Below, piece after piece: positions 23,991 through 41,803 of a DNA stretch of 64,000 nucleotides (its first letter is position 1; each line of letters begins with the position of its first letter). The notes below the pieces were generated by a model. That model did no database searches, was not told where the DNA came from, and saw nothing but the letters and a program-made list of their open reading frames with translations. The translations under genes and the position numbers were made by a program. The DNA lies in the NCBI RefSeq assembly GCF_054482525.1, contig NZ_CM137006.1. One strand, given 5' to 3'.

Positions 23991-24179
23991 CCAGATACCA
24001 ATAGAATACAACATTAATCTATCGTCAGAAGGCATCACCGGGGCCTTCTGACATAATCTGTTAATACGTGTACTATTACCCTGTTCAGAAAACATTGATT
24101 CAAAAATGAAAACCAGTTAACAGAAAAGCAAAATGATATAATGTTAAAATTTTATATAGTGCAATAAAAGGAGAATGTT

Positions 24180-25997
24180 ATGTATAATTTTATCACTATA
24201 ATGTATGATGTCTTTTCATGTTTTGGTGTTCTGGCTAAAAACCAGAATAGCCGTGACATCCGAAATATTAAAAATTTTTCCTCACATCAACATTCACTGG
24301 GCGACATGTTTGATGAATTAATAAACATTATTGATAAAGAACAAGTATTGAGTAAAGAACAACGAAAAGTTATATTTAGGAGATATGAAGATCTCTATGT
24401 TAAGCTAATGCACTATTCTGTTTTTACAGACAAAACACATCAAATAATAAAACAAAAATATTTTAATGACATTGTACCAATGATTCTCGCACTCGACATC
24501 AGGAACACATATCGCCCGGATAATGAGATGGCATTTTACTATCATATTCATTCTTTTCTCACTCAGATACCGGATAATGAGGATGATATATATCATGCTG
24601 CAAGGACATATCTGCGAAATTACGTTAAGTTATGTTTATCCGGATACACGCCAGCGAATGCGCATTTCAAAGATATCTTTGATGGCGTATATGAATTCAT
24701 TCGTAATATTCGCAAAAACAGTACACCAGGAAAAACAAAACTTATCGCAACTATCAACACATGCAAAGAAACCTGTAAACATCTGCTTTATTTAAGTAAT
24801 GAAGACAAGGAAAAAATAATTTCTGACTTAGATAAAGTTCAGGTTGCATGTTATTATCTCACTATATTACTGGCTTTCGAAAGACGAACTTCATTAACAA
24901 GCACCCTGGCAACTTTATATAAAATGCTGATAAGCGAAAGAGAAGTTTCAGAATATGAATGCCAGTTATTATATTTAACCAACCCAATAGATGTAATGAA
25001 TATACTGAACAAATACATATATTACTTTCCTAATGAGAACTCACCATTTTATACACTGAAAATTGACAGTGCATTATCGTGGGATGCCATTGACGCAATA
25101 CGAGACTATAGTATTTCTGATATTTATCTTTATCCTGAACAAAAAACAATAAATTGTGTCGTTGAGATTGAAAACATTGTCTTTGGCGGTTACATTTATA
25201 CATTGAACAACGGCGTCACATTACAAAACATAGAAAACTCTTTAAAAGATTCTTCATGCCATTATGTCTTAAATGGCTATACAGAATTTGTTAACTGTTT
25301 GAGACAACTTACTTCAGGAAAGACTGAAAGTGTTCATCGCACCATCAATAAACTGAACTATGAGAAATTACCTTTTGGATTTATCATTGCCGCGTTTGCT
25401 ATACTAAAGATAGCATTTAAAATAAAATTCAGTAAAAATCATGTAAATATCCGAGCATTATTAAATGACATCAATTATTTTATGACTTATCAGGGCGAGT
25501 CCATTAACCTTATTTCACTGGATCACGAATACCCAGAGTCCTGTCTTCAAAATGACACAAACACATATTTATTAGGAAGAGTAATATTTCTGTATAACTC
25601 AATGATTTATAAGTTCATAAACTGTCAGGAACATGAAACCAATAACATTCACTCAGCTATGATAAATAACCTATTACAGGAAGTTGATATAGCCCTTGGT
25701 AAAATAAATGACATTATAGACAGCAGAAACATATCAACCCCCCATGAACTGGCAAATATTCTTACCCGCGAAAAAATACTTACAACACGGGAAAAAAAAG
25801 GAAACCTGATAAGCCTGTTTGATGGATTCACTTTATTCCATTGTGTTGGAATGATAACCTTTCTTATCCATTATCTCAGAACACCTGAAGAAAAAGTTGA
25901 AAATATATTTATGTTATATGGTGCAGATAAAAACAATAAACTACGCAGAAGACTGATTTATGACGCACTAGGAATAATTCAGTCTCAGCAGGAGTGA
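24180..25997 (+). CDS. hypothetical protein (605 aa), strongly AT-rich orphan gene
   Basis: ATG at 24180 preceded by AAAGGAG (24167-24173); no motif recognised; composition far more AT-rich than the backbone. Confidence 0.6.
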   Translation: MYNFITIMYDVFSCFGVLAKNQNSRDIRNIKNFSSHQHSLGDMFDELINIIDKEQVLSKEQRKVIFRRYEDLYVKLMHYSVFTDKTHQIIKQKYFNDIVPMILALDIRNTYRPDNEMAFYYHIHSFLTQIPDNEDDIYHAARTYLRNYVKLCLSGYTPANAHFKDIFDGVYEFIRNIRKNSTPGKTKLIATINTCKETCKHLLYLSNEDKEKIISDLDKVQVACYYLTILLAFERRTSLTSTLATLYKMLISEREVSEYECQLLYLTNPIDVMNILNKYIYYFPNENSPFYTLKIDSALSWDAIDAIRDYSISDIYLYPEQKTINCVVEIENIVFGGYIYTLNNGVTLQNIENSLKDSSCHYVLNGYTEFVNCLRQLTSGKTESVHRTINKLNYEKLPFGFIIAAFAILKIAFKIKFSKNHVNIRALLNDINYFMTYQGESINLISLDHEYPESCLQNDTNTYLLGRVIFLYNSMIYKFINCQEHETNNIHSAMINNLLQEVDIALGKINDIIDSRNISTPHELANILTREKILTTREKKGNLISLFDGFTLFHCVGMITFLIHYLRTPEEKVENIFMLYGADKNNKLRRRLIYDALGIIQSQQE

Positions 25998-26183
25998 AGA
26001 GTTAAACAGGCAAATTATTTTTTATAAAAAGGGGATTGTTAAGTAATCCCCTGTTAATCAAAATACGCTTTCCTGACGATCTGATAATTATCAGCTCAAT
26101 ACATTTGACATAAAAGCGGTTTCTTAATTACTACTGCTACGATCACATATCAAATCATGATCGTACAATATACATTTTCACTA

Positions 26184-27386
26184 TTATTTATTCACAATTT
26201 GAGACATCACATAATCCGCCCATGCCTGCATCATCGGTACACGCTGCTCCAGTAGATCAGTACGATGATATGCCGCCTCAACCTTATTTTTCAGCGTATG
26301 AGCGAGCGCCCTTTCCGCCAGATCCCGCGAATACCCCTGTTCGCTACACCAGTCCCTGAATGTTGAGCGAAAACCATGTGCCGTGGCAACTCGCCCCGGA
26401 ATGTCACTGACGGCTTTCTTTTTACGCAGAAAACTTGTCAACACCATATCGGAAAGGATCTGCTGCTTTCTGGGTGAAGGGAACACCAGTTCATCATGCA
26501 GGCCACGTATATTTTCCAGAATGTAAATAGCCTGCCGGGATAAAGGAACACGATGCTGTAGCCTAGCTTTCATTCTTTCTGCAGGTATAGTCCATACCCG
26601 CTTATGAAAATCAATTTCAGCCCAGCGCATTCCCCTGGCTTCGCCCGAGCGAGTTGCTGTAAGTATCACCATTAATAACAGTGCGCGGGTAACATTATAA
26701 GGTTCATCGGTATACACACTGGTCGCCACAAAAAGCGGTAACTGCCTCCAGGGCATTGCGGGTTGGTGTTCATCACGTCCTCTTGTCTGCTGAGGAAGCA
26801 AATGGTCAACCACATCAACAGGATTTGCTACACAAAAACCGTGCGCCCATCCCCACTGCATAACAACATGAATGCGCTGTTTAACCCGGCTTGCCGTTTC
26901 TGACAAGGTTAACCAGACTGGACGCAGTGTTTCTGCCACGTCCGCAGCCGTAATCGAATCCAGCGTTTTTGCTCCCAGTTGAGGAAACGCGTAATTCTCA
27001 AGCGTCGATAACCACTGCCTTACATGCTTTGGATTTTCCCATCCAGGAGACAGTTCTGCATGTACACGCCTGGCTGCATCGGCAAATGTTGGGATAGCGA
27101 CTTTCTCAGATTCAGCCTTTTTAATCTCCAGAGGATCATCACCTGCAGCAAGTTGCTCTCGCATTATCCGGGCAGTACGTGCAGCTTCAGCAATACTGAC
27201 CTCTGGGTAAGTTCCCAATCCAGCATTACGTCTTTTTTGTGTCACCGGACTTACATAACGAAAAACCCATTTCCCCCGCCCCTTTACTGAAGAAGGATGA
27301 AGGGTCAGTCCGGTAATTCCCCCATGGGGCAATGGTTTGTCATCAGGTTTGATATGTCTTGCTTTCGTATCCGTCAATACTGCCAT
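26184..27386 (-). CDS. int: tyrosine site-specific integrase (P4/CP4-57 IntA-like)
   Basis: 400-aa ORF with phage-integrase C-terminal catalytic region (...HGFRSTFRDW...LAHTL...AYHRTDL); N-terminus lies about 160 bp from the island-end direct repeats. Confidence 0.85.
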   Translation of the reverse strand: MAVLTDTKARHIKPDDKPLPHGGITGLTLHPSSVKGRGKWVFRYVSPVTQKRRNAGLGTYPEVSIAEAARTARIMREQLAAGDDPLEIKKAESEKVAIPTFADAARRVHAELSPGWENPKHVRQWLSTLENYAFPQLGAKTLDSITAADVAETLRPVWLTLSETASRVKQRIHVVMQWGWAHGFCVANPVDVVDHLLPQQTRGRDEHQPAMPWRQLPLFVATSVYTDEPYNVTRALLLMVILTATRSGEARGMRWAEIDFHKRVWTIPAERMKARLQHRVPLSRQAIYILENIRGLHDELVFPSPRKQQILSDMVLTSFLRKKKAVSDIPGRVATAHGFRSTFRDWCSEQGYSRDLAERALAHTLKNKVEAAYHRTDLLEQRVPMMQAWADYVMSQIVNK

Positions 27387-27546
27387 ACGCTAATTCCCGT
27401 CACTCTGGTATGCCATCCAGTATGCCATTAGTCTCTCGCTTCACTAAGAATACATTAGATAATATCGGACAACAAAAAGTGTAATACATTGTTTATAATG
27501 AAATTATATAACACCCCTGGATTAAGTCAGATTTATTTCAGGCGGT

Positions 27547-27606
27547 CCCCCTCACCGCCATATTCAAAGAAGAGCTCGTACGAAAGTGCGAGCTTTTTTT
27601 TCGCAT
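27547..27606 (+). repeat. direct repeat copy 1 containing a tRNA 3'-end-like motif (TCCCCCTCACCGCCA) and a terminator-like hairpin plus T-run
   Basis: Near-identical to 27724-27785 (one substitution and one indel); the ...CTCACCGCCA end resembles the acceptor/CCA end of tRNA-Ser. Confidence 0.5.
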
Positions 27607-27723
27607 ATTGCACTCCAGGGGGGATGAGAAGCCCCGACCGGGGTTCGACAACTGGCGCAGCCAGTTGGACAGACCACGAACGCAGTGAGTGGGCTGCCCG
27701 CAGGGCGAGCGAAGCGAGTCAAT

Positions 27724-27785
27724 CCCCCCCCTCACCGCCATATTCAAAGAAGAGCTCGTACGAAAGTACGAGTTTTTTTTCGCAT
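27724..27785 (+). repeat. direct repeat copy 2 containing a tRNA 3'-end-like motif (AATCCCCCCCCTCACCGCCA) and a terminator-like hairpin plus T-run
   Basis: See copy 1; this copy has a longer match to a tRNA-Ser T-arm/acceptor 3' strand, but no complementary 5' acceptor strand (GGTGAGG) exists upstream, so it is not an intact tRNA. Confidence 0.5.
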
Positions 27786-28083
27786 TTTATCTGCCTGTAC
27801 GGCAGTGAACGGTATAAAAATCGAGTTTTTCTTTCGGTTGGCTTTCTAAGCTGCCTGTACGGCAGTGAACTCAAATACTACACGTCTAGCCCGTTGTTAA
27901 TAAAGCAAAACCATCTCATTTTCCTGCTACCACCCTTTTTTATCCTTACCTTCCCGCAGCACTAATTATCAACAACTTACAATCATCATCAAAAAAAGGG
28001 TCTGAACCTCCTCCACCCCATAAATAAAAAGTCCGTAACCTCTTTCGAGATTACGGACTTCACCAACCTACCTAACAATTAGA

Positions 28084-30390: not shown

Positions 30391-30711
30391 TCAGGCTTTT
30401 TCTAGCGTACACAGCAATGGATGCTCATTCTCCCTCGCGTACTTGTTCACCATCGCCACTTTGGTTTCTGCAACCTCGGCGGTAAAGACTCCGCAAATGG
30501 CCTTCCCCTGGTAGTGAACAGCGAGCATCAATTGCGTTGCACGTTCTACATCATAAGAAAAGAATTTTTGTAACACGTCAATAACAAACTCCATCGGAGT
30601 GTAATCATCATTGACTAATATCACTTTATACATAGATGGCGGTTTTAGCGCGTCGCGAACTTTTTCTTCCGCCAGTTGATCAAAGTCCAGCCAGTCGTTC
30701 GTTTTACCCAT
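30391..30711 (-). CDS. clpS: ClpA adaptor protein ClpS
   Basis: 106-aa [50 protein letters not shown]...; immediately upstream of clpA. Confidence 0.95.
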
Positions 30712-30795
30712 TGTCAGTTATCATCTTCGGTTACGGTTATCGGCAGAACGCCCTGCCGCTGACAAGAGCTTATTTGCCTGACCAATCTACTCCAC

Positions 30796-30813
30796 ATGAT
30801 AGATAACTATCAT
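30796..30813 (+). repeat. putative attL core (ATGATAGATAACTATCAT), imperfect 18-bp direct repeat of 41786-41803
   Basis: 17/18 identity with the copy next to cspD; itself palindromic (ATGATAG/CTATCAT arms); lies at the left junction of the satellite-like element. Confidence 0.55.
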
Positions 30814-31497
30814 TTATATCATTTAGTTAATTAGTCTTTATTTTTCATTATGTTGCAAATAACAAGCCCGTCAAAAACAGTGATATTAACTACACCATTA
30901 ACTACACCGCTTCACGAACAATATCGAACAACCGCGAACAAAGATCAACACGCTTTAATCATTATCATTTTCCGGCTATCCGTCATGAAGCTGGTGGATG
31001 ATCTGCGTGGTGATTTCCACCATTCAGAGCAGGGGCGGTCATCATGACCATGCCATAACAAAAACCCCATATTCGTGGTTTTTCTGTGTCGGGGCTATTC
31101 TGCTGTTGCCGTGCTGGTGGATATTCTCCGGTATGCGGCTCCCCATATCGGCATCAGGCCCACCAGCGTGAAGCGTTTTTCATTTTTCGCGGGTATAAAA
31201 AATCGATGGGGCTGGCAGTCCTGAAGACGTCAGGGTACGGAGATTTGACCCGCCCCTCCCTGTGCATGAGCACAATAAGTAACCGAAGGCGGAATTCCGC
31301 CCTCGGTACTTACATATGAGAAACGATATTTCTTCCACCGATACCCTTTATTTGGGTATTGCGAGTAAGCCCCAAAATCTGGGTGTTACTCTTACTACCC
31401 AAACTACGGGTAGTTTCCGTAGTTTCATGGTCGAGTTGCAAATCTGCAACTCACCCACCAGCCAACGCAATTTTGCGTTATCGGGAATATCAGCAAG

Positions 31498-31785
31498 TTA
31501 CCGCCGCAGTCGTTCCGGCTTCTTCCACTGGTAAGTATTTTTCGCGCTCTCCCTCCGTTGTTGAGAACGGCGACGGTATGCCAGCAACTCAAGGACTCTG
31601 GTTCGTATGTTGCGCATATCCACGCCGTTAAGCTCAATACCATCACGGCGCATCACCTCAGCAACAACACGCGCGTAATTTTCAGCGGTGACTGTATCCG
31701 GCTGCGCGGCCTGTTCGTCAGCCAACTGGCTGATTCCACCAGCACAGCGGATTAATCGCAGTATTTCAGATTCGGTCATTATCAT
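31498..31785 (-). CDS. hypothetical protein (95 aa), packaging-module associated
   Basis: ORF whose start overlaps the small-terminase gene stop (4-bp overlap); function unknown. Confidence 0.45.
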   Translation of the reverse strand: MIMTESEILRLIRCAGGISQLADEQAAQPDTVTAENYARVVAEVMRRDGIELNGVDMRNIRTRVLELLAYRRRSQQRRESAKNTYQWKKPERLRR

Positions 31786-32270
31786 GCCTGTTTTGCGACC
31801 TCATTCACTACGTCATTTTTTACCATCCGGCTGATAATCTGATTACACAAATCGTCAATAATTGACTGCACTCTGTTTACTGCCATCGGTTTAAGCCCGG
31901 CATCACGTGCCAGAATATTGGGGAGTTTTGCCAGTTCCTCGCTTACGATTTCCCCCCATATAGCCATCTCTTTTCGCACATCATCGGCGGGTATGAGTTG
32001 CGCCGTTTCCTGTTCGAACTTGAGGCGTTCACGTTCGGACTGATACCAGGCCTTACGGTCATGTGGCTCCATTTCTTCCAGTGATGCCGGAACGGGAAGA
32101 TCAAGAAAACAGGTCAGAATGTCAGTCACCCGATAGAGTTTCAGCTTGTCATGCCCTCCGGCTGGCTGGATGTTTTTCAGCCTTGCCGCCGCAGTCTGAC
32201 GACATATTCCCGCTATCGCCGCCAGTTGATTAATGTTCAGCATCAGATTTTTCAGTTCTCGATCCATACC
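31782..32270 (-). CDS. phage terminase small subunit-like protein
   Basis: ORF 31782..32354; likely start at MDRELKNLMLNINQLAAIAGICRQTAAARLKN (HTH typical of TerS/Nu1-like proteins). Confidence 0.55.
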   Translation of the reverse strand, partial: GMDRELKNLMLNINQLAAIAGICRQTAAARLKNIQPAGGHDKLKLYRVTDILTCFLDLPVPASLEEMEPHDRKAWYQSERERLKFEQETAQLIPADDVRKEMAIWGEIVSEELAKLPNILARDAGLKPMAVNRVQSIIDDLCNQIISRMVKNDVVNEVAKQA

Positions 32271-32523
32271 CGCTCCAGAATGTTTTAAACATGCATCTTG
32301 CGAACAACTTTCAGAAGAGGTCAAAAAATGCGCTATATGTTGAGCATAAAACAAGCAAAATTAACATGCCAAAAATAAAAATACTTAAAATTCAATACAA
32401 TATGAAGATGATGATGACGAATGAAAATGCAAAAACTAGCCTTTTTCCGCGCCGCTCCCGCCCCGTGGCAGACCACTCCACCGGGAGGACCCGTAAAAAA
32501 GGCGGCTGTCGCCGCCCTTGTTG

Positions 32524-34437
32524 TCATGCTCCACTCGATTTCAGTAATCCGCGATAATCGAGGGCCGCGACACCTGCATCTATGCGCACTTTCCAGGCGA
32601 CACCATCAACAGTAAAGCCCACCTGCTCCTCAAGATATGGCGTATCCATACCATCAAGATAAGCGACTTCTATTGTGTCCATCCCCTTAGCTGCGGCTAC
32701 ATACCATTCCTTGCTATTGGCCTTATCAAGACGTGGCTCAACAATTACTTCTGCCATATCTTTCACCACGTTAATGATGCCGGGGTTCTGATTGATAGTG
32801 CTCTCATCACCAACCGGAAAGACTGATGACGATGACAGAATGGCGCGACGCGCGGCAGATTCCAGCGCGGCAGGGACCAGAACAAAAGCAGGGGTAATAT
32901 TCAGTGAGTCGCCGTTAGCATCCTCCTGGAGGCGCATCAGCTTACGGGCTTCATCAAGCCCCACCATGTCCATATCCTTCGCAATAAGATTTTTATGATC
33001 GGCATGGAATAACGCTTTACCATCCGTAAATTTGCCGTTGCTGGTTAACAGAAGATAAACCAGATTACCTACTGTTCTGGCGGCCGCACGCCCCATCGCC
33101 ATGGGGATTGTAGTTAACTGGGTCAGGTCATCGTTGATAATGGCCTGACGGGTAACAGAAAAAATATTACCGTATGTGGCCAGCGCAATAGGTACACCTT
33201 TATCGCTGGTGGTGATGTATTTATATTCCGCACCTTCCGGTACTTTATCCAGCTTTGAAAAACCATTCAGACCAACGCGCTTTGCTTCATGAAAGTTTGA
33301 AAGCGATCCGGTACGCGTCCATTTCTGGAACGTTTCGCCGCTGTCCTGCCAGCCTTTCAGCACTGATTTTTCAGCACCACCAGCCAGAATATGAGAAAAA
33401 TCGCTGCTGCTGTGTGTGAAAGCTGCATTAACGACCTGCGAGCGATTTAAAAAACTGCCAACACTGATACCACGATCAGTTAGTGATGCCTGGGCCATTT
33501 CAAAAAGGCTCATCATCGCGTAAGGATTTCCCCGCTCTGGGCGTTCATACCCAAGACGAGAATAAAGCCCCTGACGAATTGCATCGCCTGTTATGTTCCC
33601 GTTACCGGCATAAATATGAGTCGGGATATTTTTATTGGATGGCGTGGACTCGCGCCCCAGCTCGTTCAACAACTTTTCACGGGCCATCTCCGGTGTACAT
33701 GATGCATCCTCCAGGCACGCCATTTTGATCCCGTCGTAACGACTGCCGAACAGGCTAAACACTTCACTTATTCCGTTGATGCGCTTCTGTTCATTACCAG
33801 CAATATTGGCTGCTCCCTGTGGCGGGGTAATCATTCCTTTAATGGTTTCAGGCATGTGTGAAAAATCTCCTGTGCGTTTCGATTCAATTCGCGCCATTGC
33901 TGTGACAGATGGCAACAATTCATCAGCAAAACCGTGCTTAAGGCATTCTTTCCCGTCCATCCAGGTTTCATCTTCCAGCATGGCGGTAATTTCCTGTGCT
34001 GATTTGCCCGTTTTTCTGGCATAAGCAGGGACTAACACGGTTTCCACCTTATCCAGCAAATCAGCATAATCACGCATATCACCAGCATTTCCGCCAGAGA
34101 TACCCCACGGCTTATGTATCATCATCATGGCGTTTTCCGGCATCACAACACGATCGCCAGCCATTGCGACAACCGAAGCCATTGAAGCCGCAACACCATC
34201 GATATAAACCGTAATTTCTGCCGGATGATTCCGTAACAGGTTATAGATGGCGATGCCTTCAAACACGTCACCACCTGGCGAATGGATCCGCAGGTCGATA
34301 TGTGAGACATCGCCCAGGGCTTTCAGGTCTTCCGCAAACTGCTTCGCGGTAATACCGAAGCCGCCAATTTCTTCATAGATGGATATTTCTGCCGCTCCGC
34401 GAACACCCAGCGCCTTAATGGTGTACCAGTGATTCAT
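32524..34437 (-). CDS. fusion of ClpP-like prohead protease and HK97-type major capsid protein
   Basis: 637-aa ORF; N-terminal about 190 aa resemble ClpP/S14-type serine protease (HSPGGDVFEGIAIYN...MASVVAMAGDRVVMPENAMMMIHKPW); the remainder resembles HK97-fold major capsid proteins. Confidence 0.65.
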   Translation of the reverse strand: MNHWYTIKALGVRGAAEISIYEEIGGFGITAKQFAEDLKALGDVSHIDLRIHSPGGDVFEGIAIYNLLRNHPAEITVYIDGVAASMASVVAMAGDRVVMPENAMMMIHKPWGISGGNAGDMRDYADLLDKVETVLVPAYARKTGKSAQEITAMLEDETWMDGKECLKHGFADELLPSVTAMARIESKRTGDFSHMPETIKGMITPPQGAANIAGNEQKRINGISEVFSLFGSRYDGIKMACLEDASCTPEMAREKLLNELGRESTPSNKNIPTHIYAGNGNITGDAIRQGLYSRLGYERPERGNPYAMMSLFEMAQASLTDRGISVGSFLNRSQVVNAAFTHSSSDFSHILAGGAEKSVLKGWQDSGETFQKWTRTGSLSNFHEAKRVGLNGFSKLDKVPEGAEYKYITTSDKGVPIALATYGNIFSVTRQAIINDDLTQLTTIPMAMGRAAARTVGNLVYLLLTSNGKFTDGKALFHADHKNLIAKDMDMVGLDEARKLMRLQEDANGDSLNITPAFVLVPAALESAARRAILSSSSVFPVGDESTINQNPGIINVVKDMAEVIVEPRLDKANSKEWYVAAAKGMDTIEVAYLDGMDTPYLEEQVGFTVDGVAWKVRIDAGVAALDYRGLLKSSGA

Positions 34438-34643
34438 TGCTCCCCCCCAGATGCAAAACCATTCTTATCAAGCCACGCGTTAACCGCGTGTCTGACAATC
34501 TGCGCCGCACCTGGTAATGGTTGGTCAGGATGATGATTTATGTGGTCGATCCTGTACTGCTTAAGGCGCATAACGGTCTGCGCATCCAGATGAACGGAAC
34601 CACCTTTTACCTCGCCTGTGTTCAGGTCGTTAATACAATTCAC
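34434..34643 (-). CDS. hypothetical small protein (69 aa)
   Basis: Stop overlaps the capsid-fusion start by 4 bp (translational coupling). Confidence 0.4.
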   Translation of the reverse strand: MNCINDLNTGEVKGGSVHLDAQTVMRLKQYRIDHINHHPDQPLPGAAQIVRHAVNAWLDKNGFASGGEQ

Positions 34644-35066
34644 AGTAACTTCCTCTTACTGACTAAACTGCGCGCATTATTGATCGATAAAAGTGGTAGA
34701 TAAACATATTTCTATCATAAAAATAGATTAATCAGATTCAGACACAAAAAAGCCGGAGAGAATCCGGCATAAATATCCCGCCATCTGAACACGTTTTGCA
34801 CAGGCAACTCCATCTGGCAGGTGAAAAACAAATTTATTTATATATTTCAATTAATTGCAAACTGGTCTAATGACAGGGAGAAAAAAATATTGTACAGGTG
34901 AAAACAGAAATAACTTTTAATTATCAATAAATTACTACACATGCTGCCGCCGCCATGAAAATGCAAAAACCAGCCTTTTTCCGCGACGCTCCCGCCCCGT
35001 GGCAGGTCACTACACCGGGAGGACCCATAAAAAAGCCGGATTGCTCCGGCTTCTGTTACTCGTTGC

Positions 35067-35489
35067 TTAAAACGGTATGTTATCCCCGTACGGATCATCA
35101 TTTCCCGCCTGTTGTTTTGCTCTGCTCAGTGCATCAGTAGCCTGCCCCTGTTGGCCTTTTTTGCCGCCCGGTCGCGCCGTTCTCGCACTGATTACGCTGT
35201 CTGCGATAACCTGCCAGCCCTGCCGCGTCTCCCCGTTCTGTCCGGTCCACTGGCTCACCTGCATGTTACCCGCCACGCTCAGGAGTTCACCCTTGCGGTG
35301 CTTTGCCAGTGCTTCGGCCTGTCTGCCAAACGCCAGGACGGATAACCACATCGTCGCCGTTCCGTCATCTGCCTGGCTGCACGGAAGTGGGACCGCCATA
35401 CTCGCCATCGTCATTTGTGTACCCTTGCTGGTGGTCTTTAACTGCGGGTCAGCCACCAGCCGCCCGTAAGCCGCTATCTGTGCTGTCAT
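35067..35489 (-). CDS. ssb: single-stranded DNA-binding protein (SSB-like)
   Basis: 140-aa ORF with OB-fold-like N-terminus, Gly/Gln-rich linker and acidic tail ending DDPYGDNIPF (SSB C-terminal DDDIPF-type motif). Confidence 0.65.
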   Translation of the reverse strand: MTAQIAAYGRLVADPQLKTTSKGTQMTMASMAVPLPCSQADDGTATMWLSVLAFGRQAEALAKHRKGELLSVAGNMQVSQWTGQNGETRQGWQVIADSVISARTARPGGKKGQQGQATDALSRAKQQAGNDDPYGDNIPF

Positions 35490-35731
35490 GCTGTCTGCTC
35501 TCCGGTTTTAACGTTGATGGTTGTCACCTGTTCCGCTTCGGCAATCTCCCGTTCTGTCAGCGTGGCAAAGTTTGCAGCTGCCGTTGTCATGAATGAGCTA
35601 ATCAGTTCGGGATGTGCTTTCGCATATCCTTCCCCGGCGTTGCGGTCGATGATTTTTATCGACACCCTTAACCAGTGTTCCGTCAAATCAAGGGCGTGCG
35701 ATTGTGATTTTTTTGTGTGCTTCGCTGTCAT
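35486..35731 (-). CDS. hypothetical small protein (81 aa)
   Basis: ORF with a 4-bp overlap to ssb; sits between the iteron origin and ssb. Confidence 0.4.
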   Translation of the reverse strand: MTAKHTKKSQSHALDLTEHWLRVSIKIIDRNAGEGYAKAHPELISSFMTTAAANFATLTEREIAEAEQVTTINVKTGEQTA

Positions 35732-35782: not shown

Positions 35783-36005
35783 CTGTTCACCTTTTGATAT
35801 TTTATCTTTTAATTCATAATGTTAAGGGGTGAACAGTTTCACAAAAACTATTCACCAACTGTTCACCACTGTTCACCCTTGAAGCTCAATAAACAATCAA
35901 AAAGGTGAACAGTGAATAGTTTGGTGAACAGTTCATAAATAACTGTTCACCCTATAACATACTGATACAAAAGATATTTATGACAGGGTGAACAGTGGTG
36001 AACAG
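35783..36005. repeat. iteron cluster, putative replication origin (9 copies of GTGAACAG/CTGTTCAC)
   Basis: 8-mer copies at 35783, 35829, 35859, 35869, 35905, 35924, 35943, 35988, 35998 in both orientations within an AT-rich tract immediately downstream of the primase gene. Confidence 0.6.
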
Positions 36006-36018
36006 TTATTCCATAAGT

Positions 36019-37851
36019 TTAATTTTTGCTATCGTCATTAGTGACCGATACACATGATGGCATCCAGTCTTCTGATTCCTCCGTCAGTGTCACGTTTGAA
36101 CGCAAACCGTGCTTCGTTTTCCGTTTCATATACTCCCTGCCATATTCCGCCATTGCCCCCGGCATATCTTTACCGAAGCGCGTCAGTGTTACAGGTTTAC
36201 CAAACCCATGTGCCCTCATATAAGCCAGATAGGCATGATAGAGATACCTGCGTGGGCTGAATGGCACAATTTCAGCATTACCCACTAACAGGCCATCACA
36301 CATTACCGACGCCATGAGATAGCCGCAGAAGTCCACCAGCGAATCACCTTCACGCTTTATCGCGAGTGCTTCTTCTGATTTCTGCTGCTCATATAAAAGG
36401 CGTCTGGCTTCGTCCTGGTCAGCAAACCGTGTAAGCAGATGGCGAATCACTACCGCCAGCTCACCTTCTATTTTTTCCGCCAGCATTGGATCACGTTCGT
36501 TCTCCGGTACAACTTCCGAAAAATTGAATATCACCCGACGACGTGAGATCCCCCCGCTGCGGTCACTGAATGACATGGCGTTATTGTTAACCGCCAGCAC
36601 TACTGCCGGAATACGCGTTGAGTAGGGGGCTTTGTGTTTCGGGTCAATTGCCACCTTGTCACCGCCTGTAATAGCCTTAATCCCTGCCCCATCACCAGCG
36701 TAGCGGGTCATATCCGGCATGATAATCAGCGAAAAGCCAACCACTAACGCGCGTTCCCTTGCATCTTCCAGCGCCTTCATGCTTGCCGATACTGTGTTGG
36801 CCTTACCCGCCAGCATGGTGCAAATCTCCGCCATCACGCTTTTACCACTTCCCCCTGGACCTGTTACCTCAATGAATAACTGCCAGTCGTACCGGTTCGC
36901 CAGCACCATGAATAATGCAGCCAGTACGCGATCCGCCTTGCGGTCATTCTCAGCCACCGAACGGCGTAACCACTTCCAGAAATTCGGCGCATGTGTTGCC
37001 AGCGTTTCCCCCTCTGCTGGTGGGCTGAAAGGTAATTCACTGGCAATTAACAACCAGTCGTTTTTGTTATGCTCCCGAAAATTACCTGTTCTGGTATCAA
37101 ATACCCCGTTACTGAATCCAATCAGGTTACGGGCTGTATTCCCCATTACAGGCAAACTTAACTTCATGGTATCGACCGCCGATTTAATGGCGTTCTGCGA
37201 ATAGCTGATCTCCGCATCAATGAAAATCTGTGCCATAGCTCGCTGTAATTCTTTATCCTGTACTGGCTCCCATACAACGCCGTTGTAATGGTGAACAGTG
37301 TCAGAGTCAGCATGAATCGCCAGTTCACCGCCATAATGTGCCAGGAGAACTTCGCCGCGTTGACTTGCTCCCATCTGGTTAAGCGCCAGTGATGAAGCGT
37401 TATCGTCTTTTACCCGCTCTTTTTTCTTTACAGGCAGTTCAACTACCTTTTTCTTTTCCGCCAGCTCTGCCCGTTCACGTTCCAGATATTCGCGCCAGTT
37501 CTCCCGTTTCTGGCTGTGCATTCCTTCAGGGTAATAATCAGCATCCCTGACACCTGCCGCTGCCAGTTTCTGCCCGATGGTATTAACAAGCCCCGGACGC
37601 AATAACCCCGCCTGATAGAGACGCACGCGATAGCGTCCGTCCGGTACGATTTGCAGGTTGTCCAGTTCGGCAAGTTGTTGCTCTCCAAGCCAGACAGGTG
37701 GCACGTTATCGCCAGCCAGTCGCCCGTCCTGTTCCTGCCACTGATTCGCATGTGCCCACGCATCACTACCCGCAAAAATGATGACTTCCGTCATTTTGTC
37801 ACGCGGCTGGTGTTTTAAATTTGGCGCTTTTTTCATTTCTGCTCTCTCCAC
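36019..37851 (-). CDS. primase / replication initiator (Pri-Rep-like, P-loop NTPase)
   Basis: 610-aa ORF; P-loop GPGGSGKS; overall resemblance to P4 alpha / PICI Pri-Rep proteins (primase C-terminal plus D5-like NTPase). Confidence 0.7.
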   Translation of the reverse strand: MERAEMKKAPNLKHQPRDKMTEVIIFAGSDAWAHANQWQEQDGRLAGDNVPPVWLGEQQLAELDNLQIVPDGRYRVRLYQAGLLRPGLVNTIGQKLAAAGVRDADYYPEGMHSQKRENWREYLERERAELAEKKKVVELPVKKKERVKDDNASSLALNQMGASQRGEVLLAHYGGELAIHADSDTVHHYNGVVWEPVQDKELQRAMAQIFIDAEISYSQNAIKSAVDTMKLSLPVMGNTARNLIGFSNGVFDTRTGNFREHNKNDWLLIASELPFSPPAEGETLATHAPNFWKWLRRSVAENDRKADRVLAALFMVLANRYDWQLFIEVTGPGGSGKSVMAEICTMLAGKANTVSASMKALEDARERALVVGFSLIIMPDMTRYAGDGAGIKAITGGDKVAIDPKHKAPYSTRIPAVVLAVNNNAMSFSDRSGGISRRRVIFNFSEVVPENERDPMLAEKIEGELAVVIRHLLTRFADQDEARRLLYEQQKSEEALAIKREGDSLVDFCGYLMASVMCDGLLVGNAEIVPFSPRRYLYHAYLAYMRAHGFGKPVTLTRFGKDMPGAMAEYGREYMKRKTKHGLRSNVTLTEESEDWMPSCVSVTNDDSKN

Positions 37852-38132
37852 GCGGCAATCATGTTTTTCAGTTCCTGTAGTTTTTTATCAACATCCATAC
37901 ATGACACATGGTTATTTCTGGAAAGCGGGATTTCCCGCCTGAATCTGCTAATAAAGATCTCCACGTTCAGCGAACTATGAAATGAATAGCCATCACGAAT
38001 AAAATACACACGGTCAAACATCAGTTCTTTTACCGTTACTCTGTTACCGTTCTTATCCAGATAAATAGCGCCGGGGATAATTTTGGGGTGTGCATAACCG
38101 CTGGCAGTCAAGCCAGATAAATATGTTCTCAT
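37833..38132 (-). CDS. hypothetical protein (99 aa)
   Basis: ORF overlapping the primase start; unknown function. Confidence 0.4.
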   Translation of the reverse strand: MRTYLSGLTASGYAHPKIIPGAIYLDKNGNRVTVKELMFDRVYFIRDGYSFHSSLNVEIFISRFRREIPLSRNNHVSCMDVDKKLQELKNMIAAWREQK

Positions 38133-38991: not shown

Positions 38992-39088
38992 AGCGACCTC
39001 GATACTATCGTTATCGTTGGTGGTTAGAAGCCCCGTTACTGCTCCAACAGTGCGGGGTTTCGTCGTTTCTGCACCTTGCATCAACAAG

Positions 39089-39140
39089 GTGTTGAACACC
39101 AATGTAAACTCAGGTGTTGAACACGTCAAGTGTTGAACAC
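39089..39140. promoter_or_regulatory. three perfect 11-bp palindromic repeats GTGTTGAACAC (putative operator sites) in a divergent promoter region
   Basis: Copies at 39089-39099, 39114-39124, 39130-39140, between the minus-strand gene block and the plus-strand small gene at 39191. Confidence 0.55.
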
Positions 39141-39751: not shown

Positions 39752-39961
39752 TTACGCTGCCTTGCCTGAATTAATGCGATCCCGGCTTTTAACCCATTCC
39801 ATAACCTCGGACAGCAGCCAACCTACAGAACGACCGCCCAGATTACGGCGTGACGGGAAATTCCCTTTTTTCTCCAGTTCATAGCGTGTAGTGCGACACA
39901 CTCCAGTTAACTTACGACATTCATCCTCACGGATTACGCGATCTTCATTTATTTCACGCAT
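39752..39961 (-). CDS. alpA: AlpA-family transcriptional regulator / excisionase-like
   Basis: 69-aa [60 protein letters not shown]; AlpA-type HTH. Confidence 0.65.
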
Positions 39962-40380: not shown

Positions 40381-41619
40381 TCAAGAATTTTGGGTGTAAA
40401 TTCGCGGGGTCATAACAACGATTTTTTTATCATTGTTCTGGAGAAGCTCGAGACGGTCTACCCATAGATTAAGAGCATCACGTTTTGCATCAAGATAACG
40501 GGAGTGGTTATAGACTCGTTGCATCCCCGGCATCTGGTGGGCGGTAAGCTGCTCGACAATATGCGGATCCACGCCTAAATCGTTCAGCATGGTTGTAAAT
40601 GTGTGCCGGATATCGTGTAACGTCCAGGGGGCTTGATTAATTCGTCTGTGCGCTGTTCTTCCGTACTCTGCTACCGAAGATTGTCCTTTCAGTTCACCAA
40701 GCAATAAGCCTGTGTGTCTGTTCTGCTCCACCAGTTGCGTGACGAACGGCAAAATGCTTTCCGGTATTGGCCTGAATATGGCGACCTTCGTTTTGCTGTG
40801 CTCCTTCGGTACTGTCCAGAGCATTTCTTTAAAATCCCACTCCTGCACCTCAGAGCGCCTTAGCTCAGTGGTACGGCATCCAAAAACAATCAGGAGGCGA
40901 ATTAGGGCGCTGTAGTATGGCGGGAATATTTTGTCATCCAGGGCGCGGAGTAATTCCCCAAGCTCCTTATTTGTTAGTACGCGCTCGCTCACTTCTGCTT
41001 TTTTTCCCACATCACCGACAACCATATCATCAAGAACGTTGCTGATTGCGTATCGTCGTTTTCGGCAGTACTTAAGCGCCTGTTTGCATACCTGTAGCAA
41101 AAATCCGGCAGATACTGGGCTTCGCTTTGCCATCTGGTCAAAACATGCCAACCAGTGCCGTAGCTCGCATTTTTCCAACGGCAAAGCGCCAATCTGGCTG
41201 ATTATGTGTTTATTGATCCGGCTTTTCAGTGATTCGTAGTCAGTGCGCTTTTCCTTTGCATACGATTCAAGCCAGTAAGTGAGCGCTTCCTTAACTGTCA
41301 CGGGGGCTAACGCATCCTGTACAGCACGATTAAGCTCATAGCGCGGATTTTTCCCCTCAGCCAGCCAGGCGCGACACTGTGCTGCTTTTTCCCTGGCTGC
41401 TTTCAGGCTCAGATCGGGATAATTGCCCAGTCTCAGACGTTCCGGTGATACCTGCCTACCAGTTCCGGCCCTGTAAGTGAAATACCAGGTTAACAGGCCG
41501 CTGGTGGAATGTCTTACGCTAAGATTGCCACCGTCATTAAAAAAGGCGTTTTTTGTGGTTGGTGATCCGCTTAATTTTCGTAAAAGAGTGTCGCTAAGTC
41601 TATGAATTGCGCTGCTCAT
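40381..41619 (-). CDS. int: tyrosine site-specific integrase
   Basis: 412-aa ORF with phage-integrase catalytic region (...LHDIRHTFTTMLNDLGVDPHIVEQLTAHQMPGMQRVYNHSRYL); adjacent to the right att repeat. Confidence 0.85.
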   Translation of the reverse strand: MSSAIHRLSDTLLRKLSGSPTTKNAFFNDGGNLSVRHSTSGLLTWYFTYRAGTGRQVSPERLRLGNYPDLSLKAAREKAAQCRAWLAEGKNPRYELNRAVQDALAPVTVKEALTYWLESYAKEKRTDYESLKSRINKHIISQIGALPLEKCELRHWLACFDQMAKRSPVSAGFLLQVCKQALKYCRKRRYAISNVLDDMVVGDVGKKAEVSERVLTNKELGELLRALDDKIFPPYYSALIRLLIVFGCRTTELRRSEVQEWDFKEMLWTVPKEHSKTKVAIFRPIPESILPFVTQLVEQNRHTGLLLGELKGQSSVAEYGRTAHRRINQAPWTLHDIRHTFTTMLNDLGVDPHIVEQLTAHQMPGMQRVYNHSRYLDAKRDALNLWVDRLELLQNNDKKIVVMTPRIYTQNS

Positions 41620-41785
41620 GTTTCGCGTTTCCGGTCATCAAAATTAACTACACCATTGACTACACCGTGCATCGTACAAGGGCAAACCGTGACGAACAAG
41701 AGCGAACAAGGAAAACAAAATTTTCCTTTATAATCATAGCGATGAATGCACACAAAACACTACCACGAACACCCGCGAACACTAG

Positions 41786-41803
41786 ATGATAAATAACTAT
41801 CAT
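41786..41803 (+). repeat. putative attR core (ATGATAAATAACTATCAT)
   Basis: 17/18 identical to 30796-30813; lies between the integrase and cspD. Confidence 0.55.

What the first reader, a model, noticed from the sequence alone, without database searches (positions are those of the whole stretch)
32524..34437. Single-polypeptide ClpP-like protease / HK97-like major capsid fusion in a satellite lacking portal and large terminase
The element encodes its own capsid protein fused to a prohead protease and a small terminase, but none of the other morphogenesis genes. This suggests capsid remodelling or size redirection of a helper phage, or a reduced capsid-forming satellite.
Basis: partly seen in the sequence, partly recalled or inferred. 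Interest (0 to 1): 0.45.

Follow-up and report, generated by a model that had tools for sequence, protein, structure and literature searches.

The report
Phage satellite's fused protease-capsid gene
This is the capsid gene of a small phage-parasitising island (a PICI) in E. coli; its fused protease-scaffold-capsid layout is the normal one in the helper-phage lineage the island exploits, and both the protein family and such islands are already described, although what the island's own capsid protein does has never been tested.

Summary
ORF 32524-34437 (-) is an intact 637-aa protein with three parts: a ClpP-like protease, a helical scaffold-like linker, and an HK97-fold capsid domain. It is not a frameshift artefact. 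It passes the curated NCBIfam model NF045540, and about 140 of the 150 best-scoring 50%-identity cluster representatives have the fused length.

The gene sits in a 10.76-kb Gram-negative PICI between clpS and cspD. The island carries int, alpA, primase with iterons, SSB, a conserved 69-aa ORF, the fusion, two lambda-like cos sites and a TerS homologue. It has no portal, TerL, connector or tail genes.

The fusion, the TerS homologue and cos all derive from mEp460/cdtI/Stx-type lambdoid phages. Near-identical satellites lie inside the TerL gene of mEp460-like prophages, which identifies the helper lineage.

Across 79 satellites from several genera, the copies share these features:
- They are intact and form one clade, sister to the helper copies.
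- They are 54-62% identical to their own helper's copy.
- They keep the catalytic Ser and His.
- They show strong purifying selection.

All of this fits published PICI definitions, in which capsid and terS genes are core components. Capsid remodelling remains a hypothesis.

Interest is low to moderate, and the kind is already known.

The parts
30885..30941 (.). Right-end attachment repeat (attR side, next to clpS). The conserved core is ATTAACTACACCATT(A/G)ACTACACCG.
   Evidence: Direct repeat family D2, 72% identity over 57 nt, spacing 10,758 bp. It lies between clpS (30391-30711) and the last satellite ORF.
31498..31785 (-). 95-aa ORF (phrog_1561, function unknown). Its start overlaps the stop of the TerS homologue.
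   Evidence: phrog_1561 E 1e-52. Present at 74-100% identity in most E. coli relatives of the satellite. No similarity to TerL or to any PDB chain.
31782..32267 (-). Satellite small-terminase homologue (DUF1441). This is the 161-aa RefSeq start; a 190-aa TTG-initiated ORF extends to 32354.
   Evidence: Pfam DUF1441 E 2e-35. phrog_141 'terminase small subunit' E 2e-57. 65% identical to mEp460 TerS over residues 5-150, with divergent C-terminal tails. The best phage hits are the same phages that carry the fusion.
32421..32514 (-). cos-B: a terminator hairpin (GGCGGCGACAGCCGCC followed by T6) and then a lambda-like cosQ/cosN. The predicted 12-nt cohesive end GGGCGGGAGCGG is at 32463-32452.
   Evidence: 94-nt repeat D1; sequence. 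Aligns to the lambda cos junction taken from NC_001416. 94% identical over 86 nt to the region upstream of mEp460 terS, and collinear with it into the gene. A cos of this type lies within about 35-60 nt of the fusion stop in 51 of 79 satellites.
32524..34437 (-). ClpP-like protease / scaffold-like linker / HK97-fold major capsid polyprotein, 637 aa. The protease is about residues 1-180 (nt 34437-33898). The helical linker is about residues 181-334 (nt 33897-33436). The capsid domain is about residues 335-637 (nt 33435-32527).
   Evidence: families; structure; Ser85 and His108 invariant; purifying selection.
34434..34643 (-). 69-aa ORF whose stop overlaps the fusion start by 4 nt (GTG start). 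From its sequence pattern I predict a small ribbon-helix-helix-type protein.
   Evidence: phrog_4934 E 5e-30. A homologue (36-100% identity) was detected by tblastn in every locus searched except L068, where the fusion starts at the contig edge. It lies directly upstream of 79 satellite copies of the fusion and of none of the 14 helper copies. Independent gene calls place it upstream of the fusion in Dickeya and Serratia. The conserved core is visible in the alignment. No similarity to gpW-like adaptor, portal or any PDB chain. The fold assignment is inference only.
34752..34768 (-). Intrinsic-terminator-like hairpin between cos-A and the 69-aa ORF.
   Evidence: GCCGGATTCTCTCCGGC followed by T6; sequence.
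34955..35048 (-). cos-A: a second cos copy in the same orientation, 2,534 bp upstream of cos-B, so the two flank the 69-aa ORF plus fusion. The predicted cohesive end GGGCGGGAGCGT is at 34997-34986.
   Evidence: Repeat D1, 88% identical to cos-B; sequence; aligned to lambda cos. The 232 nt beginning at cos-A match, at about 90-95% identity, the regions at the start of DUF1441 genes in sampled E. coli genomes, and about 1,500 records have best matches in that identity band. The upstream copy occurs only in a subgroup of E. coli satellites (18 of 79 loci).
35067..35489 (-). Single-stranded-DNA-binding protein.
   Evidence: Pfam SSB E 7e-16; phrog_44.
35486..35731 (-). 81-aa ORF (phrog_1231, function unknown).
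   Evidence: conserved in E. coli relatives.
35828..36016 (.). Iteron cluster (GGTGAACAGT-containing repeats) directly downstream of the primase gene. This is the probable replication origin.
   Evidence: Repeat families D3, D7 and D8. PICI origins lie immediately 3' of the replication gene (PMC6092414).
36019..37851 (-). Primase/helicase (D5_N, DUF5906 and Pox_D5 domains).
   Evidence: phrog_864 'DNA primase' E 6e-192.
37833..38132 (-). DUF4222 protein.
39752..39961 (-). AlpA-family regulator/excisionase.
   Evidence: Pfam Phage_AlpA E 3e-16.
40381..41619 (-). Tyrosine integrase.
   Evidence: Pfam Phage_integrase and Arm-DNA-bind_3.
41643..41699 (.). Left-end attachment repeat (attL side, next to yljB/cspD).
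   Evidence: Repeat D2. The RefSeq annotation of an identical element places yljB and cspD just outside it.

Best explanation
WHAT IT IS (high confidence). The ORF is the 'capsid morphogenesis' core gene of a canonical Gram-negative phage-inducible chromosomal island (PICI). The island is 10.76 kb and is integrated between clpS and cspD of E. coli.

The gene encodes a complete shell-building polyprotein in one chain. It has a ClpP-like maturation protease, a helical scaffold-like segment and an HK97-fold major capsid domain. This is exactly the layout used by the heads of mEp460/cdtI/Stx-type lambdoid phages.

The satellite's packaging module comes from that same phage lineage, which is therefore the predicted helper. 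The module reads: cos, 69-aa ORF, fusion, cos, TerS homologue.

The protease is present because, in this head type, the capsid protein only exists as the fused precursor.

HOW IT MOST LIKELY WORKS (inferred, moderate confidence). The steps would be:
1. A helper phage induces the island, which excises and replicates from its own primase and iteron origin.
2. The island expresses the 69-aa protein and the polyprotein.
3. The polyprotein assembles into procapsid shells nucleated on the helper's portal, either alone or mixed with helper subunits.
4. The Ser85/His108 protease removes itself and the scaffold segment, as in HK97-like maturation.
5. The satellite TerS homologue, working with helper TerL, recognises the satellite cos site directly downstream of the capsid gene and packages satellite DNA.
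6. The helper supplies portal, TerL, connectors, decoration protein and tail.

Whether the resulting shells are helper-sized or small is open. Four genome copies total 43.0 kb, which is 97% of the mEp460 genome. One copy would fill about 86% of a T=3 shell.
For: IDENTITY
- Family and fold results.
- All five PICI core components are present and nothing else structural: int, alpA, primase, capsid gene and terS (definition in PMC10085698).

HELPER LINEAGE
- The fusion is 56% identical over its full length to mEp460, mEp043, mEp213 and Stx-phage proteins.
- TerS is 65-71% identical to the TerS of the same phages.
- cos-B through terS is collinear with mEp460.
- Loci L024, L021, L014 and L010 carry the same satellite body (primase, SSB, 69-aa ORF, fusion, TerS, 95-aa ORF at 97-100%). 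There it is inserted at residue ~326-333 of the TerL gene of a prophage whose TerL, W, portal, decoration and tail genes are 98-100% mEp460.

THE GENE IS FUNCTIONAL IN SATELLITES
- All 79 satellite copies are intact.
- Ser85, His108 and Glu157 are invariant in 66 distinct copies.
- Non-synonymous divergence is 0.11-0.21 while synonymous sites are saturated. dN/dS is about 0.03-0.07 against the Dickeya and Serratia satellites.
- Satellite copies form one clade, sister to the helper copies.
- A satellite copy is only 54-62% identical to the copy in the prophage it is embedded in. Satellites from different genera are 79-84% identical in the capsid domain.

SATELLITES CARRY SHELL GENES MATCHED TO A HEAD TYPE
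- Strain B1.H1.39 has, at the same att site, a PICI with the same backbone. Its late module is instead a lambda-E-type capsid protein plus its decoration protein.

PRECEDENT
- PMC6092414 cites SaPIbov5 Ccm as a satellite-encoded capsid-protein homologue that generates small capsids.
- cf-PICIs build their own capsids (abstract of 10.1101/2022.09.08.507074).
Against: - No experiment bears on this capsid type.
- In the best-studied relative, EcCICFT073, deleting the lambda-E-type capsid gene or the decoration gene did not relieve interference with lambda. All packaged DNA was phage-sized (PMC6092414). PICI capsid genes are reported as not required for transfer (PMC10111431).
- The cf-PICI abstract states that in all other analysed satellites the small capsids are made of phage proteins.
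- Nothing here shows that the polyprotein can use a helper portal. A protein 54-62% identical to the helper's may not co-assemble with it.
- Purifying selection and monophyly show function, not which function.
- The IMG/VR sample was chosen by similarity to the query, so it is enriched for satellite copies by construction.
Confidence: 0.5

Rival explanations
1. Interference by co-assembly (Ccm-like). The satellite polyprotein mixes with, or competes against, the helper's capsid protein. This forces small or aberrant shells that exclude the 44-kb helper genome. Its main role would then be to damage the helper and favour the satellite, not to provide an independent shell.
For: [quoted passage not shown]
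- SaPIbov5 Ccm and PmCI172 are precedents (PMC6092414).
- Satellite copies consistently lack a 26-30-aa linker that helper copies have.
- 31 near-fixed satellite-versus-helper differences cluster at residues 282-391, which cover the C-terminal scaffold helices, the N-arm and the start of the E-loop.
- One 10.76-kb genome would fill about 86% of a T=3 shell scaled from mEp460.
Against: - EcCICFT073 makes no small capsids, and its capsid gene is not the interference determinant.
- Identity to the helper copy is low (54-62%). Two satellite alleles that are only about 65% identical to each other both occur in prophages with 99%-identical mEp460-type head genes. That argues against a tight requirement to co-assemble with helper subunits.
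- Four genome copies fit a helper-sized head almost exactly (97%), so small capsids are not needed.
Confidence: 0.2
2. Dispensable or legacy cargo. The capsid gene was captured from helper late operons. It persists as a spare copy that complements a helper capsid gene interrupted by helper-embedded relatives, or as homology for recombination with helpers. In a chromosomal PICI like this one it would have no role of its own.
For: - In L038, L043, L048, L058 and L072 the satellite sits at codon ~105-110 of the helper's own fusion gene and carries an intact copy. [quoted passage not shown]
- Capsid genes of PICIs were reported as not required for transfer.
- The late module is exchangeable between otherwise identical PICIs.
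- In this element the module is bracketed by two cos repeats that could serve as recombination sites.
Against: - The closest helper-embedded relatives of this element interrupt TerL, not the capsid gene.
- Chromosomal copies are intact, with invariant catalytic residues.
- The satellite clade is old, distinct from helper copies, and under strong purifying selection across genera. An unused legacy gene would not look like this.
- A backup copy would be expected to resemble the helper gene it replaces, not to be 54-62% identical to it.
Confidence: 0.2
3. Reduced capsid-forming PICI, or a decayed prophage remnant. On this view the element once encoded a full head module and is losing it.
For: It carries two head-module genes (capsid polyprotein and TerS) of phage origin. 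PICI and cf-PICI share integrase, regulator and primase modules (PMC10085698).
Against: - No TerL, portal, adaptor or connector gene, and no fragment of any, lies in the element or the window.
- The same compact layout recurs in 79 loci from several genera.
- Capsid and TerS phylogenies separate PICI from cf-PICI almost perfectly (PMC10085698).
Confidence: 0.05
4. Sequencing or annotation artefact. On this view a frameshift joined a separate protease gene to a separate capsid gene.
For: None was found. In HK97-like phages the protease and capsid genes are adjacent, so the idea was worth testing.
Against: - A curated full-length family model is passed.
- A full-length PHROG profile matches.
- The identical protein occurs on 365 contigs.
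- About 140 of the 150 best-scoring cluster representatives have the fused length.
- The architecture is published for phage MD8.
Confidence: 0.01

Closest known systems
Gram-negative PICIs of Enterobacteriaceae (prototype EcCICFT073; Fillol-Salom et al. 2018, 2019)
   Same: - About 10-kb island with unidirectional int, alpA and primase genes, with the origin downstream of the primase.
- A capsid gene in the late region.
- Lambda-like cosQ/cosN and two cos sites.
- No lysis, tail, portal or TerL genes.
Sources.
   Different: - EcCICFT073 carries a lambda-E-type capsid gene plus a decoration gene. It redirects packaging with Rpp and has no TerS.
- This element carries the fused ClpP-scaffold-capsid type and a genuine TerS homologue.
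- None of its small ORFs matches any PDB sequence, which should include the Rpp structures if the 2019 study deposited them.
Helper-embedded PICIs (Eco567.11capE and relatives; PMC10111431)
   Same: - Near-identical satellite bodies (97-100%) occur inside the TerL gene of mEp460-like prophages.
- More distant relatives occur at codon ~105-110 of the helper's ClpP-capsid gene, the published C:CLP_protease:110 site.
- All carry the 69-aa ORF plus fusion module.
Source.
   Different: The window's element is chromosomal, between clpS and cspD. Its integrase is only 23% or about 40% identical to the integrases of the embedded relatives.
NCBIfam NF045540 'ClpP-like prohead protease/major capsid protein fusion protein' in lambdoid phages (mEp460, mEp043, mEp213, cdtI-like, Stx phages), and the single-gene protease-scaffold-capsid protein gp5 of Pseudomonas phage MD8
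   Same: The same three-part architecture over the full length. The model score is 904 bits against a cut-off of 475. Identity to the phage proteins is 56%.
   Different: - Satellite copies form their own clade.
- They lack a 26-30-aa linker present in helper copies.
- They are preceded by a 69-aa ORF rather than by a portal gene.
- They are followed by cos rather than by a decoration gene.
Sources.
SaPIbov5 Ccm (a satellite-encoded capsid-protein homologue that produces small capsids)
   Same: A satellite carries a diverged homologue of its helper's capsid protein and has a cos-based packaging system (PMC6092414).
   Different: Ccm's effect on capsid size was shown experimentally; here nothing has been tested. 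This protein also retains the protease and scaffold parts. I did not test sequence relatedness to Ccm.
Capsid-forming PICIs (cf-PICI, e.g. EcCIEDL933)
   Same: A satellite-encoded HK97-fold capsid protein, protease and TerS.
   Different: cf-PICIs also encode TerL and the head-tail adaptor and connector (the components the paper uses to tell them from PICIs), and take only tails from the helper. All of these genes are absent here.

Membership tests
PICI (SatelliteFinder / Fillol-Salom definition) | Integrase | tested here: met
   40381-41619 (-), Phage_integrase plus Arm-DNA-bind_3.
PICI (SatelliteFinder / Fillol-Salom definition) | Regulator of the AlpA/MerR/Stl type | tested here: met
   39752-39961 (-), Phage_AlpA E 3e-16.
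PICI (SatelliteFinder / Fillol-Salom definition) | Primase-replicase module followed by an origin | tested here: met
   D5_N, DUF5906 and Pox_D5 protein at 36019-37851. Iterons at 35828-36016 lie directly downstream. Origin activity was not tested.
PICI (SatelliteFinder / Fillol-Salom definition) | Capsid-morphogenesis gene | tested here: met
   The fusion ORF itself.
PICI (SatelliteFinder / Fillol-Salom definition) | Small-terminase homologue and/or helper cos site | tested here: met
   DUF1441/phrog_141 protein, 65% identical to mEp460 TerS. Two lambda-like cos sites.
PICI (SatelliteFinder / Fillol-Salom definition) | No other phage structural or lysis genes; size about 10-20 kb; own att site | tested here: met
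   10,758 bp between the att repeats. No TerL, portal, adaptor, decoration or tail homologue.
PICI (SatelliteFinder / Fillol-Salom definition) | Induction, packaging and high-frequency transfer by a helper phage | not testable with these tools
   The helper is only inferred, from shared cos, TerS and capsid lineage and from helper-embedded relatives.
Capsid-forming PICI (cf-PICI) | Large terminase plus head-tail adaptor and connector, the components that distinguish cf-PICI from PICI | tested here: not met
   tblastn with mEp460 TerL, portal and W-like adaptor found no hit in the window. The element has no unassigned space for them.
NCBIfam NF045540 (scaf_prot_MCP1) | Whole-protein score above the curated cut-off | tested here: met
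   903.9 bits against 475.
HK97-fold major capsid proteins | HK97 fold in the C-terminal domain | tested here: met
   Model of residues 285-637 has pLDDT 90. All top 50 Foldseek PDB matches are HK97-fold shells, probability 1.00, TM 0.5-0.67 relative to the target. Pfam Phage_capsid_4 and Mu-like_gpT also match.
ClpP-related (S14-type) head maturation proteases | ClpP fold with catalytic Ser and His | tested here: met
   - NF045542 'head maturation protease, ClpP-related' scored 228 bits against a cut-off of 120.
- Foldseek TM is about 0.8 to ClpP structures.
- Ser85 and His108 are invariant in 66 satellite copies.
- By my reading of the alignment, the position of ClpP's catalytic Asp is occupied by an invariant Glu157.
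- Catalytic activity was not tested.
P4-like satellites | Sid, Psu and Delta capsid-hijacking genes | tested here: not met
   None appears among the annotated genes of the identical element or in the Pfam and PHROG results for its ORFs. Only an ash-family pseudogene and an Icd-like gene recall P4.
Helper-embedded PICI | Integration inside a late gene of the helper prophage | tested here: not met
   This copy lies between the chromosomal genes clpS and yljB/cspD. Relatives L024, L021, L014 and L010 do meet the criterion.
Capsid size redirection by a satellite capsid homologue (Ccm-like) | Production of satellite-sized capsids that depends on the gene | not testable with these tools
   There are only indirect observations: the linker deletion, the clustered substitutions and the fill arithmetic.

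The most novel reading that the evidence does not exclude
Satellites of this clade are a 'shell-only' intermediate between classical PICIs and capsid-forming PICIs. A single polyprotein gene, together with the coupled 69-aa protein, would let them build their own capsid shell on a stolen helper portal. That shell is possibly small (T=3/T=4) and immunologically or mechanically distinct from the helper's. Packaging would use their own TerS and cos. This would be the first case of a satellite that supplies the shell but not the portal, terminase motor or connectors.
Probability: 0.3. Interest if true: 0.65.

Novelty: already known. Interest (0 to 1): 0.28.

Why it matters
As a feature it is ordinary. 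A capsid gene and a terS gene are listed as core components of Proteobacterial PICIs. The fused protease-capsid family is curated by NCBI, and PICIs carrying a CLP_protease-type capsid gene have been reported.

The remaining value lies in an acknowledged gap. Nobody has shown what PICI-encoded capsid proteins do, and the only knock-out, in EcCICFT073, had no phenotype.

The comparative results here argue that the gene is functional in satellites:
- The satellite copies form one clade.
- They are under strong purifying selection and keep the catalytic residues.
- They are always coupled to a small ORF and usually followed by cos.
- They are only 54-62% identical to the copy in the helper they sit in.

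The results also name a concrete helper type (mEp460-like) with which to test it. That makes a clean experiment possible, but it does not change how satellites are understood.

Tried and rejected
1. Frameshift or annotation artefact: rejected.

2. Rpp-type packaging redirection: the TerS homologue, the 95-aa ORF and the 69-aa ORF gave no PDB sequence match. There is therefore no evidence for an Rpp homologue, although I could not confirm which Rpp entries the PDB copy holds.

3. 69-aa ORF as a gpW-like adaptor or a portal remnant: BLASTP against the mEp460 portal and a profile-profile comparison with the W-like adaptor were both negative.

4. 95-aa ORF as a TerL fragment: negative.

5. Sequence search of the capsid half against PDB: only marginal Mu-GpT-type hits (E 0.0025-0.04), so the fold had to be tested by structure prediction.

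6. Foldseek with the full-length model was swamped by ClpP entries. I therefore built a second model of residues 285-637.

7. The phage D3 capsid paper was checked as a possible published fusion and does not mention one.

8. dN/dS: synonymous sites are saturated between genera. Only the low non-synonymous divergence and approximate ratios can be quoted.

9. cf-PICI and P4-like assignments were considered and rejected on gene content.

10. Literature searches for an experimental study of a PICI-encoded ClpP-capsid fusion, or of small capsids in E. coli PICIs, found none.

11. The capsid-size arithmetic (4 copies = 97% of mEp460; 1 copy = 86% of a scaled T=3, 56% of T=4) cannot discriminate between models.
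Full report
OBSERVATION.
- Pfam finds a ClpP protease domain at residues 38-175 (E 1e-34) and a Phage_capsid_4 domain at 335-634 (E 3e-54).
- PHROGs matches a 668-position 'head maturation protease' profile end to end (E 8e-284).
- NCBIfam's curated model NF045540, 'ClpP-like prohead protease/major capsid protein fusion protein', scores 903.9 bits against a cut-off of 475.
- RefSeq annotates the identical protein under that name (WP_063085899). The exact sequence occurs on 365 contigs.

STRUCTURE.
- A full-length AlphaFold2 model built on 81 diverse homologues has mean pLDDT 87.7.
- Its N-terminal half superposes on solved ClpP structures with TM about 0.8 relative to the target.
- Those hits hid everything else, so I modelled residues 285-637 separately (pLDDT 90, pTM 0.85).
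- All 50 best PDB matches of that model are HK97-fold shell proteins: encapsulins and the SaPI1/80alpha, T5, D3, JBD30, LME-1 and XM1 capsids (E 1e-9 to 1e-7, probability 1.00).
- Between the two folded parts lie several helices at 187-321 with two low-confidence breaks. This is where a scaffolding (delta-like) domain would be expected.
- Ser85 and His108, the ClpP catalytic pair, are nearly invariant across the family. They are strictly invariant in satellites.
- By my reading of the HMMER alignment, ClpP's catalytic Asp aligns with Glu157, which is also invariant.

NOT AN ARTEFACT. An exhaustive HMMER search of 1.8 billion cluster representatives returned 7,351 clusters at E<=1e-30. About 140 of the 150 best-scoring representatives are 600-800 aa, the fused length, and the rest are shorter partial matches. 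The same protease-scaffold-capsid single gene has been described for Pseudomonas phage MD8 gp5 (PMC8508860). In the phage database, full-length homologues at about 56% identity are the head genes of mEp460, mEp043, mEp213, CP-1639 and many Stx phages. In mEp460 the gene order is terS, terL, W-like adaptor, portal, fusion, decoration, then tail genes.

THE ELEMENT. The host is E. coli. The ORF lies in an island bounded by a direct repeat (30885-30941 and 41643-41699, spacing 10,758 bp), between clpS and yljB/cspD. All of the island's assigned genes read on the minus strand:
- integrase
- AlpA
- an ash pseudogene and an Icd-like gene (RefSeq annotation)
- DUF4222
- a D5-type primase followed by GGTGAACAGT iterons, the likely origin
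- an 81-aa ORF
- SSB
- a 69-aa ORF
- the fusion
- a DUF1441 protein
- a 95-aa ORF

tblastn with mEp460 TerL, adaptor, portal, decoration and major tail proteins finds nothing in the whole window. The element therefore has the five core components that define a PICI: integrase, regulator, primase-replicase, capsid morphogenesis and small terminase. It has none of the components that define a capsid-forming PICI (PMC10085698).

PACKAGING MODULE AND HELPER.
- The DUF1441 protein is a TerS homologue. It matches phrog_141 and is 65% identical to mEp460 TerS over residues 5-150, with a different C-terminal tail.
- Directly after the fusion's stop codon comes a terminator hairpin. It is followed by a sequence that aligns with the lambda cos junction taken from NC_001416.
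- The window reads TTTACGGGTCC-TCCCGGTG...CCACG|GGGCGGGAGCGG|CGCGG. Lambda reads TTTACGGGTCCTTTCCGGTG...TTACG|GGGCGGCGACCT|CGCGG.
- This cos-B and the sequence on to terS are collinear with mEp460 (94% over 86 nt).
- A second copy, cos-A, is 88% identical over 94 nt and lies 2,534 bp upstream in the same orientation. The two therefore bracket the 69-aa ORF and the fusion.
- Two cos sites were also found in EcCICFT073, and why some PICIs have two is an open question in that literature (PMC6739421).
- Across 79 related satellites, a cos within about 35-60 nt of the fusion's stop is common (51 loci). The upstream copy is confined to an E. coli subgroup (18 loci).

RELATIVES. An IMG/VR scan returned 79 loci. 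I mapped them with reference proteins.
- An orf69 homologue was detected in every locus except one, where the fusion starts at the contig edge. In 79 satellite copies it lies directly upstream of the fusion. It is never upstream of a helper copy.
- Loci L024, L021, L014 and L010 are decisive for the helper. The same satellite body (primase, SSB, 69-aa ORF, fusion, TerS homologue and 95-aa ORF, each 97-100% identical) is inserted at residue ~326-333 of the TerL gene of a prophage. That prophage's TerL, adaptor, portal, decoration and tail genes are 98-100% mEp460, and it has its own fusion gene.
- In L038, L043, L048, L058 and L072, from other hosts, the satellite sits at codon ~105-110 of the helper's fusion gene.
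- Both arrangements are the 'helper-embedded PICIs' of PMC10111431. That paper also notes PICIs carrying a CLP_protease gene.
- Gene calls in Dickeya and Serratia genomes show the same layout (int, alpA, primase, small ORF, fusion) in islands next to fis.

IS THE GENE USED?
- All 79 satellite copies are uninterrupted.
- Against the Dickeya and Serratia satellites, non-synonymous divergence is 0.11-0.21 while synonymous sites are saturated. Where it can be computed, dN/dS is about 0.03-0.07, lowest in the capsid domain.
- A neighbour-joining tree puts all satellite copies in one clade, sister to the helper copies.
- A satellite copy is 54-62% identical to the copy in the very prophage it is embedded in. 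Satellites from different genera share 79-84% in the capsid domain.
- Satellite copies lack a 26-30-residue linker that all helper copies have.
- The 31 near-fixed satellite-versus-helper differences cluster at residues 282-391, which cover the end of the scaffold-like helices, the N-arm and the start of the E-loop.
- One caveat applies. The sample was drawn by similarity to the query, so the size of the satellite clade is not informative. Only its separation from co-resident helper copies is.

MODULARITY. Strain B1.H1.39 has a PICI at the same clpS/cspD site with the same backbone. Its late module is instead a lambda-E-type capsid gene, a decoration gene, an HTH gene and a different TerS. This is the EcCICFT073-like module. 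The capsid-packaging module is therefore an exchangeable cassette matched to a head type. In complete E. coli genomes, 183 of 5,426 carry the cos / 69-aa ORF / fusion / cos cassette at 80% coverage or more.

INTERPRETATION. What the gene is can be stated with confidence. It is the capsid-morphogenesis core gene of a canonical Gram-negative PICI, inherited from the mEp460/cdtI/Stx head lineage. In that lineage protease, scaffold and capsid protein are one polypeptide, and that is the simplest reason a satellite carries a protease.

How it works is inference. I favour the view that the polyprotein supplies shell subunits for the particles that carry the satellite. These would assemble on helper portals and mature by the polyprotein's own protease, with packaging directed by the satellite TerS homologue and cos together with helper TerL. 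Three observations support this:
- All three shell-building functions are conserved.
- The gene is an old, selected satellite lineage rather than a recent copy of the helper's gene.
- The alternative lambda-type cassette carries a capsid protein together with its cognate decoration protein.

The main rivals are a Ccm-like interference or size-redirection role and a dispensable backup-copy role. Against my preferred reading stand the EcCICFT073 results. [quoted passage not shown] PICI capsid genes are also reported as not required for transfer (PMC10111431).

Size arithmetic does not decide the matter. Four genome copies equal 43.0 kb, or 97% of mEp460. One copy would fill about 86% of a T=3 shell, or 56% of a T=4 shell, scaled from mEp460.

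NOVELTY. The protein family is curated. PICI capsid and terS genes are part of the published PICI definition. CLP_protease-bearing PICIs and the helper-embedded relatives are published. The feature is therefore already known. What is not known is the function of PICI-borne capsid proteins. The comparative evidence here, and the identification of an mEp460-type helper, make that question testable.

Noticed in passing
window 34955-35048 and 32421-32514: Two lambda-like cos sites in direct orientation bracket the 69-aa ORF plus capsid gene. Their cohesive-end 12-mers differ by one base, and their downstream (cosB-side) flanks differ. One flank is mEp460-like. The other resembles the region upstream of DUF1441 genes in many E. 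coli prophages. This may widen the helper range or mark the cassette's recombination boundaries.
   Followed up: partly
window 34434-34643 (-) versus 34530-34703 (+): RefSeq annotates a short plus-strand hypothetical gene here. It does not annotate the minus-strand 69-aa ORF, which is conserved at protein level in all related satellites and matches phrog_4934. The RefSeq call is probably on the wrong strand.
   Followed up: partly
L009 32477-41894 (E. coli B1.H1.39, same clpS/cspD site): A PICI with the same integrase, primase and SSB backbone carries a lambda-E-type capsid gene, a decoration gene, an HTH gene and a different TerS in place of the fusion cassette. The late module has been swapped wholesale.
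   Followed up: partly
L039 (IMG/VR contig 2534681659_000014): A satellite-type fusion gene (96% identical to the window's) appears only from residue 105 onward. A second, complete satellite fusion (about 78%) lies upstream. This looks like a satellite inserted into another satellite's capsid gene, as reported for PICIs invaded at C:CLP_protease:110.
   Followed up: no
L002 12156-14987 (Dickeya): The Dickeya satellite carries a 943-aa tape-measure-type gene (TMP_2, Tape_meas_lam_C) directly after the fusion, in place of a TerS homologue.
   Followed up: no
L079-L088 (IMG/VR): A second satellite allele of the fusion (625 aa) is only about 62-65% identical to the window's. It occurs on a similar backbone. 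In L086 and L088 it is embedded in the same mEp460-type TerL gene. Two very different satellite capsid alleles therefore share one helper type.
   Followed up: partly
window 35828-36016: An iteron cluster (GGTGAACAGT core, at least five copies) lies between the primase gene and the next ORF. It is the probable satellite replication origin.
   Followed up: no
window 39085-39140: Three closely spaced copies of TCA(A/G)GTGTTGAACAC lie in the region between the regulatory genes. They look like operator sites.
   Followed up: no
window 30789-30817 and 41779-41807: A 29-nt partly palindromic motif (GATAGATAACTATCAT-like) occurs just outside both att repeats, but out of register with them (spacing 10,990 versus 10,758). 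It is unexplained.
   Followed up: no
window about 10900-27400: A second, unrelated island lies on the other side of clpA. It contains:
- a P4-type integrase (26184-27386)
- a 605-aa hypothetical gene in 32% GC DNA (24180-25997)
- IS1 remnants
- YfjI, DUF3987 and inovirus-Gp2-type genes
- a large frameshifted AAA gene and a 'TOTE conflict system' primase fragment
These names come from the annotation of a 99.4%-identical genome.
   Followed up: no
window 27489-27965: This is repetitive sequence, annotated as two RtT sRNA copies in the matching genome. ARAGORN finds no tRNA gene anywhere in the window. In strain EC13 a tRNA-Ser gene lies on the far side of clpA, separated from it by a type I-F CRISPR-Cas locus.
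   Followed up: no
window 8540-10453 (+): This is another ORF of exactly 637 aa. It corresponds by position to a gene annotated 'enterotoxin' downstream of malX and a malY-like gene in the matching genome. The equal length is a coincidence and it is unrelated to the capsid fusion: the fusion query found only one place in the window.
   Followed up: partly
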